Below, piece after piece: positions 11,408 to 13,600 of a stretch of DNA of 64,000 bases. How positions within the stretch are numbered: position 1 is the stretch's first letter; the number at the start of each line of letters is the position of its first letter. Below the pieces are notes generated by a model. It was not told the DNA's origin. It worked only from the letters and a program-made list of their open reading frames with translations, and searched no databases. A program made the translations under genes and the position numbers. Origin of the DNA: Eledone cirrhosa (lineage: Eukaryota); contig OZ024743.1 in the NCBI GenBank assembly GCA_964016885.1, positions 323,144,001 through 323,208,000 of the forward strand. The letters are read 5' to 3'.

Positions 11408-11437
<30 letters not shown>

Positions 11438-11473
11438 AATAAATAACAAAGAACGCTTATAGCATATGCATAT

Positions 11474-11531
11474 CTTTACTTGCTAACATTGTTTCATCCA
11501 CACTATAAGTGGGACTCATCAGAGCATAAAG
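11474..11531 (-). ncRNA. Minimal type-I hammerhead ribozyme (left arm)
   Basis: Reverse complement of the 13427-13484 motif. Confidence 0.8.
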
Positions 11532-12038
11532 GTTAAATTACATACCATACAAGCAATAACAAATCCAAGACATTGAAGAATGAAAGGTAATAATAGACGA
11601 TAGAGGATAAGAATAAAAAGTAAATAAAAATAAAAGTGAAAATAAAAATAAAAATAAGGGGTGCTATCTGTCACAGTTGGGCGGTGTGCTGTCAACATAT
11701 AGTTACATACAAGCATACACATGGATAAGAGAACAGACAAGAGTAGACACATGGATAAGAGAACAGACAAGAGTAGATAAGATAATGGGATTAGGTAAGA
11801 GTAGGTAAAAAATAGGTAAAAAATAGGTAAAAAACAGACTTATAATATATATAAAAAGAAATACAAAGAAATACATAACAAACTTACATATAAAATATAG
11901 GGTAAGGAATAATATACAATTAAAAATTATATACATAGAACATAAGATAAAATAAGGTAAACTAAAATCAAATAACATAGACTAAATTAAAATTAAAATC
12001 AAATGTGTAATTATAATTATATGTATAATTAAATGTAA

Positions 12039-12074
<36 letters not shown>

Positions 12075-12867
12075 AAATTAAAAATTAAATAAATAAATAA
12101 AATTAAAATTTAAATTTTAAAATTTTAAAATTAAAATCTAAATTTAAATATAAATAAATAAATAAATAAATAAATAAATGGAGTCAAGTAAGTAAATAAA
12201 TAAAATTAGATAACATGAAATGAAATAAAATAAAATGAAATAAAGTAAATTGAGATAAGATATATATTTTTTTAGAATATATCTCTTGAATATATCAGGG
12301 GCCCACGAAGGCACTAAATGTCACAGTTATGTGTATCACTTGACCAATTTTTCAAAATACATTTCTTGAAAACATCAGGGGCCCACGAAGGCACTAAGTG
12401 TCACAGTCACCAGTATCACTTGACCATTGCAAGGCAATGGAGGCGTCCCAGGTTGGGCAGTCTCGAAAGTTCACTCGAAAGTCATGGGTGTGCATTCACA
12501 CTGTGAATGCACACCCATGACCAGTGATACTGGTGACTGTGACACTTAGTGCCTTCGTGGGCCCCTGATGTTTTCAAGAAATGTATTTTGAAAAATTGGT
12601 CAAGTGATACACATAACTGTGACATTTAGTGCCTTCGTGGGCCCCTGATATATTCAAGAGATATATTCTAAAAAATATATATCTTATCTCAATTTACTTT
12701 ATTTCATTTTATTTTATTTCATTTCATGTTATCTAATTTTATTTATTTACTTACTTGACTCCATTTATTTATTTATTTATTTATTTATTTATATTTAAAT
12801 TTAGATTTTAATTTTAAAATTTTAAAATTTAAATTTTAATTTTATTTATTTATTTAATTTTTAATTT

Positions 12868-12903
<36 letters not shown>

Positions 12904-13426
12904 TTACATTTAATTACATTTAATTATACATATAATTATAATTACACATTTGATTTTAATTTTAATTTAGTCTATGTTATTTGATTTTAGTTTACCTTAT
13001 TTTATCTTATTATGTTCTATGTATATAATTTTTAATTGTATATTATTCCTTACCCTATATTTTATATGTAAGTTTATGTATTTCTTTGTATTTCTTTTTA
13101 TATATATTATAAGTCTGTTTTTTACCTATTTTTTACCTATTTTTTACCTACTCTTACCTAATCCCATTATCTTATCTACTCTTGTCTGTTCTCTTATCCA
13201 TGTGTCTACTCTTGTCTGTTCTCTTATCCATGTGTATGCTTGTATGTAACTATATGTTGACAGCACACCGCCCAACTGTGACAGATAGCACCCCTTATTT
13301 TTATTTTTATTTTTATTTTCACTTTTATTTTTATTTACTTTTTATTCTTATCCTCTATCGTCTATTATTACCTTTCATTCTTCAATGTCTTGGATTTGTT
13401 ATTGCTTGTATGGTATGTAATTTAAC

Positions 13427-13484
13427 CTTTATGCTCTGATGAGTCCCACTTATAGTGTGGATGAAACAATGTTAGCAAGTAAAG
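13427..13484 (+). ncRNA. Minimal type-I hammerhead ribozyme (right arm)
   Basis: cuuua-UGCU CUGAUGA [GUCCCAC uuaua GUGUGGAU] GAAA C aau G UU | AGCA-ag-uaaag; stems I, II and very short III present; predicted cut after 13473. Confidence 0.8.
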
Positions 13485-13600
13485 ATATGCATATCCTATA
13501 AGCGTTCTTTGTTATTTATTTATTATATTACGGAGCTAACCTCATACTGCCTGCTGGATAAGTGGAGTGTTATACACCCCTGATCCTTTCCCTAGCATAC

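What the first reader, a model, noticed from the sequence alone, without database searches (positions are those of the whole stretch)
11430..13528. 2.1-kb palindrome capped by a hammerhead ribozyme on each strand
Seen: two ~1-kb non-coding arms are reverse complements, differing by a few substitutions and small indels. Each carries the same intact minimal type-I hammerhead (CUGAUGA/GAAA/GUU) about 45 nt from its outer end, pointing outward, and the left end abuts (TA)n. Known: minimal type-I hammerheads with tiny stem III mark Penelope pLTRs and animal retrozymes, which are usually tandem and thought to cleave as dimers; inverted pLTRs also occur in Penelope insertions. Inference: this is a non-autonomous fold-back ribozyme retroelement. 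A transcript from either strand would form a ~1-kb dsRNA hairpin with a ribozyme at its 3' end, and the antisense arm could mask that ribozyme. It could feed siRNA production or ADAR editing.
Basis: partly seen in the sequence, partly recalled or inferred. Interest (0 to 1): 0.85.

Follow-up and report, generated by a model that had tools for sequence, protein, structure and literature searches.

The report
Two-ended Penelope retrotransposon insertion
This 2.2-kb palindrome is one of dozens of insertions of a protein-coding Penelope-like retrotransposon, in which two truncated copies of the element's end sit back to back in a TA microsatellite; the layout is already known, but almost every such insertion has one short end and one long end, which suggests both cut DNA ends likely start reverse transcription at two different fixed sites.

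Summary
The palindrome and both hammerhead motifs are real. The arms differ by 1 substitution and 5 indels, and the right arm runs on 76 nt, to 13604. It is not a separate non-autonomous fold-back element. The arms are the distal 3' UTR/pLTR of an autonomous Hydra-clade Penelope-like element (5.1-kb unit, 829-aa telomerase-like RT with C-terminal GIY-YIG), and the central junction is unique in the genome. Inverted pLTRs, the tail, TA targeting and opposite-strand hammerhead pairs are all published. What the genome adds is an end rule. Ends fall at two fixed sites, +55 and +149 nt after the hammerhead cut site, and 35 of 36 two-ended events carry one of each. A second family with no DNA similarity does the same (+58/+145; 36 of 37). 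In 16 of 33 loci the short-end arm reaches further upstream, and in 6 the arms do not overlap, which simple cDNA fold-back cannot give. Arms of one locus share sequence variants. The likely mechanism is twin priming from both target ends on one source transcript, then end joining. Ribozyme activity, transcription and dsRNA effects are untested.

The parts
11407..11429 (.). (TA)n microsatellite, left target flank
   Evidence: not mirrored on the right beyond the TA run
11430..12501 (-). Left arm: 5'-truncated 3' end of the Penelope-like element, from about -1120 to the short end, +55 nt after the hammerhead cut site
   Evidence: locus L086 is this insertion
11474..11531 (-). Hammerhead motif of the left arm; predicted cut between 11485 and 11484
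12421..12480 (-). 60 nt of element sequence present only in the left arm (missing from the right arm)
12481..12521 (.). Head-to-head junction, a 41-nt hairpin centred on 12501; the right-arm junction word is unique in the genome
12502..13604 (+). Right arm: 5'-truncated 3' end of the same element, running to the tail end (+149)
13427..13484 (+). Hammerhead motif of the right arm: stem I 13432-13435/13474-13477 plus a distal helix, stem II 13443-13462, 2-bp stem III; predicted cut after 13473 (GUU)
13529..13604 (+). Tail: start of the next unit's 5' UTR (+56 to +149), with a private 18-nt deletion
13605..13943 (.). TA/TG-rich microsatellite, right target flank

Best explanation
The palindrome is a single insertion of an autonomous Hydra-clade Penelope-like retrotransposon into a TA microsatellite, made of two 5'-truncated copies of the element's end joined head to head, and it likely arose by twin priming, in which both cut target ends would start reverse transcription at two different fixed sites of one source transcript. 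Shown: family identity, ORF, TA target, two end sites (+55 and +149 after the hammerhead cut site), one of each per insertion, independent arm lengths, shared variants between arms, unique junctions. Inferred: (1) the element's GIY-YIG endonuclease cuts both strands in (TA)n; (2) one 3' end primes at +149 and the other at +55, each on a short UA-rich word; (3) both cDNAs run upstream through the hammerhead, so the template was uncleaved multimeric or re-ligated RNA; (4) the same region is copied twice, by strand displacement on one RNA or from two units of one source locus; (5) both cDNAs stop early and the host joins their inner ends. In this copy both stopped at about -1120, and the right arm lost 60 nt next to the centre. 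The product has no ORF. The hammerheads are passengers of the pLTR, predicted to be weak as monomers and masked in a read-through transcript.
For: Arms match the last ~1.1 kb of a 5,095-nt tandem unit with an 829-aa ORF. The ORF's predicted fold hits telomerase RTs first (best E 7e-9; model pLDDT 79), and its C-terminal part gives a weak GIY-YIG match (E 0.0098, below cut-off). The hammerhead 41-mer has 142 exact copies. The first 100 listed form 70 loci, 27 with outward pairs and 0 with inward pairs. Ends: 34 of 70 loci have short+tail ends, 4 short+short, 21 short only, 10 tail only, 1 unresolved, 0 tail+tail. The unresolved locus is short+tail, and the four short+short loci share over 5 kb of flank, so they are one duplicated event. 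That gives 35 of 36 events. Second family (45% and 38% aa identity in two blocks, no DNA match): ends +58 and +145, 36 of 37 two-ended loci with one of each. The short arm reaches further 5' in 16 of 33 loci, the tail arm in 16, equal in 1. In 6 the arms do not overlap, and the tail arm stops at +89/+90 in 4 of these. Arms of one locus are more alike than arms of different loci: distance 0.74 vs 5.4 in 28 family-B loci, 0 of 20,000 permutations; in family A 16 of 22 loci rank in the closest 15%. In vitro, a lizard PLE cuts both strands, starts RT at two sites that bound the tail, and uses uncleaved RNA (PMC11167929).
Against: All mechanistic steps are read from genomic products; nothing was assayed. 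This locus alone has an almost exact symmetric centre, which fold-back explains equally well. Near-symmetric junctions are in excess (10 of 33 within 130 nt vs 3.0 expected). Two two-ended events break the rule (one per family). 31 of 70 family-A loci show only one end, so twin priming is not obligatory (two of them show a 10-12-nt remnant of the other end). In 6 of 22 family-A loci the arms are not clearly closer than unrelated arms, and 10 shared-polymorphism cells differ between arms against 19 that agree. [quoted passage not shown] Arm extents were read from BLAST output across simple repeats and are approximate.
Confidence: 0.7

Rival explanations
1. Fold-back: one cDNA primed at the tail site folds back and copies itself, the endonuclease resolves the copy at the AT-rich short site, and later asymmetric deletions reshape the palindrome.
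For: 41-nt hairpin exactly at this junction plus a one-sided 60-nt deletion. Excess of near-symmetric junctions (19 of 30 scored family-B loci within 30 nt, from a sample selected for paired hammerheads). Arms share variants. Self-priming was proposed from junction palindromes in PMC3846280, and endonuclease resolution of the tail in PMC8557442.
Against: It predicts that the short arm lies inside the tail arm. Instead the short arm is longer in 16 of 33 loci and disjoint in 6, with a recurrent +89/+90 stop that random deletion would not give. 21 of 70 loci show only a short end. Only 3 of 33 junctions scanned have a clear hairpin (20 bp or more); two more reach 12 and 18 bp in AT-rich sequence. 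Two of 44 other motif-bearing arms stop within about 6 nt of the same site as this junction (L056, L101; one further flagged arm, L112, is a sequence variant), so both cDNAs could have stopped there independently.
Confidence: 0.2
2. The 2.1-kb palindrome is itself a mobile non-autonomous fold-back ribozyme element that is copied as a unit.
For: Palindromic layout with two hammerheads. Four identical-length palindromes of the family exist on contig C19. Family B has many ~240-nt-spaced pairs.
Against: The junction word occurs once. The four C19 copies share over 5 kb of flank, so they are a segmental duplication. The short family-B palindromes have varied junctions and locus-specific variants on both arms.
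Confidence: 0.04
3. Assembly artefact from fold-back long reads.
For: Arms are nearly identical, and no read-level check was obtained.
Against: Flanks are not mirrored. The two ends differ in the way the whole family's ends differ. The right arm has private changes seen in 0 of 70 other loci. Dozens of loci in two families show the same layout with different junctions.
Confidence: 0.02
4. Two independent insertions, or two unrelated RNAs, placed back to back and later homogenised by gene conversion.
For: TA tracts are insertion hot spots; some family-A loci have arms no closer than average.
Against: Independent events would not give one short and one tail end in 35 of 36 and 36 of 37 cases (binomial p about 5e-10 and 3e-10 at p=0.5), nor 0 inward pairs. 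Private substitutions are mostly on one arm (34 vs 5 on both), which argues against ongoing conversion.
Confidence: 0.04

Closest known systems
Hydra clade of C-terminal EN+ Penelope-like elements (Craig et al. 2021, PMC8557442)
   Same: Single ORF with telomerase-like RT and C-terminal GIY-YIG; RW(K/R), DKT, CxCx5C, CxxC and CxH motifs; no CCHH; hammerhead in the pLTR; (TA)n target; partial tandems, inverted 5'-truncated copy and a tail at one end.
   Different: The unit is 5.1 kb with a ~2.4-kb 3' UTR (Hydra elements are generally under 3 kb). The tail is ~94 nt, against 30-40 nt in the paper's general PLE description. RWR instead of RWK in this family.
Inverted pLTRs and opposite-strand minimal hammerhead pairs of Penelope elements (PMC3846280; PMC4209133)
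   Same: Head-to-head inverted pLTRs, junction palindromes, a tail on one pLTR; dual hammerheads on opposite strands 100-700 bp apart in Schistosoma; small palindromic helix III thought to need dimers.
   Different: Here the spacing is 1,954 nt. The stem II closing pair is G-U rather than G-C and the triplet is GUU; related families have G-C and GUC.
Anolis Poseidon PLE in vitro (Frangieh et al. 2024, PMC11167929)
   Same: Two RT start sites bounding the tail, downstream of the hammerhead; AT-rich target cut on both strands; uncleaved RNA as template.
   Different: There the sites lie inside the ORF and are not homologous to the target. Here they lie in the 5' UTR (ATG at +218) and end in TA-like words. 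The one-of-each pairing within an insertion was not examined there.
LINE-1 twin priming and dual priming (PMC2837659)
   Same: Both target ends prime, giving an inverted segment joined internally.
   Different: L1 twin priming uses the poly(A) tail plus a variable internal site and deletes sequence. Here both sites are fixed, and the same region is usually copied twice, giving a palindrome.
Animal non-LTR retrozymes (PMC7229834; bioRxiv 10.64898/2026.07.22.740005)
   Same: Non-coding, type-I hammerhead, related to PLE termini.
   Different: Retrozymes are short head-to-tail tandem units amplified as such; this is a head-to-head, single-junction by-product of a coding family.

Membership tests
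Penelope-like element (EN+) | Single ORF with telomerase-related RT | tested here: met
   829-aa ORF in the parent unit; top fold hits are TERTs. Pfam and a PDB sequence profile gave no hit. The window copy itself has no ORF.
Penelope-like element (EN+) | C-terminal GIY-YIG endonuclease | tested here: met
   IVY...YIG, R, E and N conserved in alignment A1; Pfam GIY-YIG E 0.0098, below cut-off; Atlas neighbours carry GIY-YIG
Penelope-like element (EN+) | Partial tandems (pLTRs), 5' truncation, inverted copy, tail | tested here: met
Hydra clade | DKT motif; CxCx5C linker; CxxC and CxH; no CCHH | tested here: met
   SDKT, CNCRRALGC, CNLC and CPH in the ORF against the definition
Hydra clade | RWK motif | tested here: inconclusive
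   RWR here; RWK in most aligned relatives
Hydra clade | Insertion into (TA)n | tested here: met
   The terminal ends listed run into TA repeats, one of them (L100) after a short TC run
Hydra clade | Generally shorter than 3 kb | tested here: not met
   Unit period 5,095 nt; family B 4,011 nt. The paper gives this as a tendency, not a criterion.
Hydra clade | Groups with Hydra RTs in a phylogeny | not tested
   No reference Hydra sequences were fetched; the paper's supplements were not read
Type-I hammerhead ribozyme | Conserved core CUGANGA / GAAA / NUH with three stems | tested here: met
   Core and stems present. Related families vary at N7, GUU/GUC, G-U/G-C and stem I U-A/C-G. No Rfam model match.
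Type-I hammerhead ribozyme | Self-cleavage | not testable with these tools
   Active monomer fold is -8.0 kcal/mol against -13.4 for the best fold; dimer helix III -5.4
Non-LTR retrozyme | Short head-to-tail tandem unit amplified as a unit | tested here: not met
   Head-to-head, junction unique, arms belong to a coding element
MITE or fold-back DNA transposon | Multi-copy unit with fixed terminal inverted repeats and fixed interior | tested here: not met
   The two ends differ (+55 vs +149); interiors differ at each locus

The most novel reading that the evidence does not exclude
Hydra-clade Penelope elements integrate by programmed twin priming: the ribonucleoprotein cuts both strands of (TA)n and assigns one end to each of two RT start sites set about 55 and 147 nt past the hammerhead, then copies the same RNA region twice. 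This one rule would explain the tail, the inverted pLTR and why this genome is predicted to hold well over a thousand outward-facing hammerhead palindromes, each a possible source of dsRNA.
Probability: 0.55. Interest if true: 0.62.

Novelty: new member of a known kind. Interest (0 to 1): 0.38.

Why it matters
As a locus it is ordinary: a dead, truncated transposon insertion with a published layout. Its value is as a lead. How Penelope elements make tandem/inverted structures is named as an open question in PMC8557442. The young, abundant families in this genome give a countable rule (one short end plus one tail end, same template, independent lengths) that separates twin priming from fold-back and can be tested with the existing in vitro system. 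The process also seeds the genome with long near-perfect palindromes; whether these give dsRNA is unknown.

Tried and rejected
Rfam found no hammerhead at either threshold. Folding z-scores of the bare motif were not significant (-0.55 to -0.71; -2.2 for a 141-nt context). Pfam on the whole ORF and a PDB sequence profile gave nothing. Sequencing runs: no RNA holder listed, which says nothing on expression. No read-level check of the junction was obtained. A 360-aa frame overlapping arm sequence in L032 is an inverted piece fused to the ORF's end, not a second gene. No shared RNA structure at the two start sites was evident from single-sequence folding. Target-site duplications cannot be read inside TA tracts. 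Earlier-findings look-ups returned nothing. Whether the locus lies in a host intron was not tested.

Full report
1. Observation. The inverted repeat is real. Arms 11430-12420 and 12523-13528 align with 986 matches, 1 substitution and 5 indels. Both carry the same hammerhead core, at 13436-13473 (+) and 11485-11522 (-), with the predicted cut after 13473. The centre is a 41-nt hairpin at 12481-12521, and 60 nt of the left arm are missing on the right. The right arm continues to 13604 before entering a TA-rich microsatellite, so the insertion is 11430-13604. The flanks beyond the TA runs are not mirrored.

2. What it belongs to. The window lies in a 3.0-Gb genome. The only species-named close protein relative is from Argonauta hians, so a cephalopod host is a likely inference. 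The arm end has near-identical copies elsewhere; all 40 scored candidates matched at 99-100%. Tandem copies define a 5,095-nt unit with an 829-aa ORF, whose ATG is 218 nt after the hammerhead cut site and whose 3' UTR is about 2.4 kb. The window's arms are the last ~1.1 kb of that UTR plus the first 55 or 149 nt of the next unit. The predicted ORF structure (pLDDT 79) hits telomerase RTs first. The motifs DKT, CxCx5C, CxxC and CxH, with no CCHH, fit the Hydra clade as defined in PMC8557442. Eleven of the 150 matches lie in 844-aa open frames, so the family is young. The window copy has no ORF.

3. The layout is common in the family, and this junction is unique. The hammerhead 41-mer has 142 exact copies, of which 100 were listed. 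They form 70 loci: 25 '-+', 2 '-++', 1 '++', 42 single, and none inward-facing. A 29-mer across the window's junction occurs once. Four equal palindromes on contig C19 share over 5 kb of flank and are one duplicated event. So the palindrome is not copied as a unit.

4. The end rule. Terminal ends cluster at +55 (short) and +149 (tail) after the cut site and run into TA repeats. Of 70 loci, 34 have one short and one tail end facing outward, 4 have two short ends (the C19 event), 21 show a short end only, 10 a tail end only, 1 was unresolved and none has two tail ends. The unresolved locus is short+tail, giving 35 of 36 two-ended events. A second Hydra-like family has 45% and 38% amino-acid identity in two blocks and no DNA match, and 3,843 exact hammerhead hits. 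Its first 100 listed hits, all on one contig, form 61 loci, 37 with outward pairs. I fetched the 38 multi-hit loci. Ends fall at +58 and +145; 36 of the 37 two-ended loci have one of each and one has two short ends.

5. Fold-back or two primers. For 33 of the 34 short+tail loci (L064 left out, interrupted by other DNA), the short arm reaches further 5' in 16, the tail arm in 16, and 1 is equal. In 6 the tail arm is only 50-70 nt and does not overlap the other arm; 4 of these stop at +89/+90. A cDNA that copies itself cannot give a copy longer than its template, nor a tail that is absent from it. Fold-back therefore needs later one-sided deletions in about half the loci. Against my reading, near-symmetric junctions are in excess (10 of 33 within 130 nt vs 3.0 expected), and this locus is one of them. 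Recurrent stop sites could explain this: two other arms stop within about 6 nt of the window's junction, and 35 of 60 scored family-B arms stop at -120 to -160 in a sample selected for paired hammerheads. For this single locus the two routes cannot be separated.

6. One source template. Family-B arms within a locus differ by 0.74 against 5.4 between loci (28 of 37 loci scored, 9 left out for short arms; 0 of 20,000 permutations). In family A, 16 of 22 loci have arms among the closest 15%; shared polymorphisms agree in 19 cells and differ in 10; private substitutions are on one arm in 34 cases and on both in 5. This fits copying from one source locus followed by independent drift. It cannot tell one RNA molecule from two units of one transcript. 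That PLE RTs lack RNase H, which would allow re-copying, is recalled knowledge and comes from no call.

7. The ribozyme. The core is intact, with a 4-bp stem I plus a distal helix, an 8-bp stem II and a 2-bp stem III whose loop is near-palindromic (dimer helix -5.4 kcal/mol). The active monomer fold is 5.4 kcal/mol above the best fold. Of 20 upstream regions from related families, 14 gave a hammerhead, with changes at the free N7 position, G-U to G-C, GUU to GUC and U-A to C-G in stem I. Rfam has no matching model. Both element ends lie downstream of the cut site while the arms run upstream of it, so the template was uncleaved or re-ligated RNA (inference). In a read-through transcript the outer arms are predicted to pair fully (-296 kcal/mol for the 171-nt stretch tested), masking the ribozyme. 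There is no evidence here for or against transcription.

8. Literature. PMC4209133 (parts 1-2 of 4 read) reports dual minimal hammerheads on opposite strands and low in vitro activity. PMC8557442 (passages and section 11) describes the inverted truncated copy, the one-sided tail, TA targeting and the Hydra clade, and lists the origin of these structures as open. PMC3846280 (part 1 of 5, section 8, passages) describes inverted pLTRs with junction palindromes and proposes self-priming. PMC11167929 (parts 1-2 of 4) shows two RT start sites, cutting of both strands and a dispensable hammerhead. PMC2837659 (passages) defines twin and dual priming for L1. bioRxiv 10.64898/2026.07.22.740005, PMC9977147 and PMC12910113 were seen as passages and added nothing on junctions; PMC7229834 was seen only as a listing with the start of its abstract. 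I did not find the one-short-one-tail rule counted, or twin priming proposed for PLEs, in searches (listings only, apart from the papers named). Arkhipova 2006 and Evgen'ev and Arkhipova 2005 were not read, nor were any supplements; they may already state it.

9. Verdict. A real feature of a known kind: an inverted-pLTR insertion of a new Hydra-like Penelope family. Identity of the element is close to certain; twin priming as the route is about 0.7. Interest 0.38, carried by the family-wide end rule rather than by the locus.

Noticed in passing
window 32919-34152 (hammerhead about 34050-34110, +): A second, unrelated hammerhead-bearing element between two (TA)n runs, ending about 50 nt after its predicted cut site; a 36-mer from it has 77 exact copies in the genome. 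No internal inverted repeat and no long ORF. Probably a third Penelope-like family.
   Followed up: partly
G000:C1, loci L148-L185: Family B forms many ~480-bp mini-palindromes whose arms stop at -120 to -160, often at a GCTAGC-like word, with short inserted or templated junction sequence. This may mark an RNA 5' end; such loci would be mistaken for MITEs.
   Followed up: partly
G000:C4:355664000-355676600 (L122, L123): A 12-kb family-A insertion with a full unit on each side of the inverted junction, still ending in one short and one tail end.
   Followed up: yes
G000:C19, L116-L119 and L124-L127: One family-A insertion with two short ends lies in a block of at least 5 kb present four times within 4.4 Mb, one copy inverted.
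   Followed up: partly
window 9470-11406 (-): 5'-truncated LINE with a long open RT frame next to the left TA run; related pieces recur in both orientations across the window. The RTE-type label is recalled, not tested.
   Followed up: no
window 15198-15836 (-): 212-aa frame resembling a Tc1/mariner transposase fragment (label recalled).
   Followed up: no
L032:3809-6298 (-), residues about 480-585: The ORF carries an N/G-rich low-confidence insert between the RT thumb and the linker, recalling the N-rich inserts described for rotifer Penelope ORFs in PMC3846280.
   Followed up: no
window 12502-13604: The 18-nt tail deletion, the single substitution and two small indels of the right arm occur in 0 of 70 other family loci; with the 60-nt deletion, the private changes are concentrated on this arm.
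   Followed up: partly
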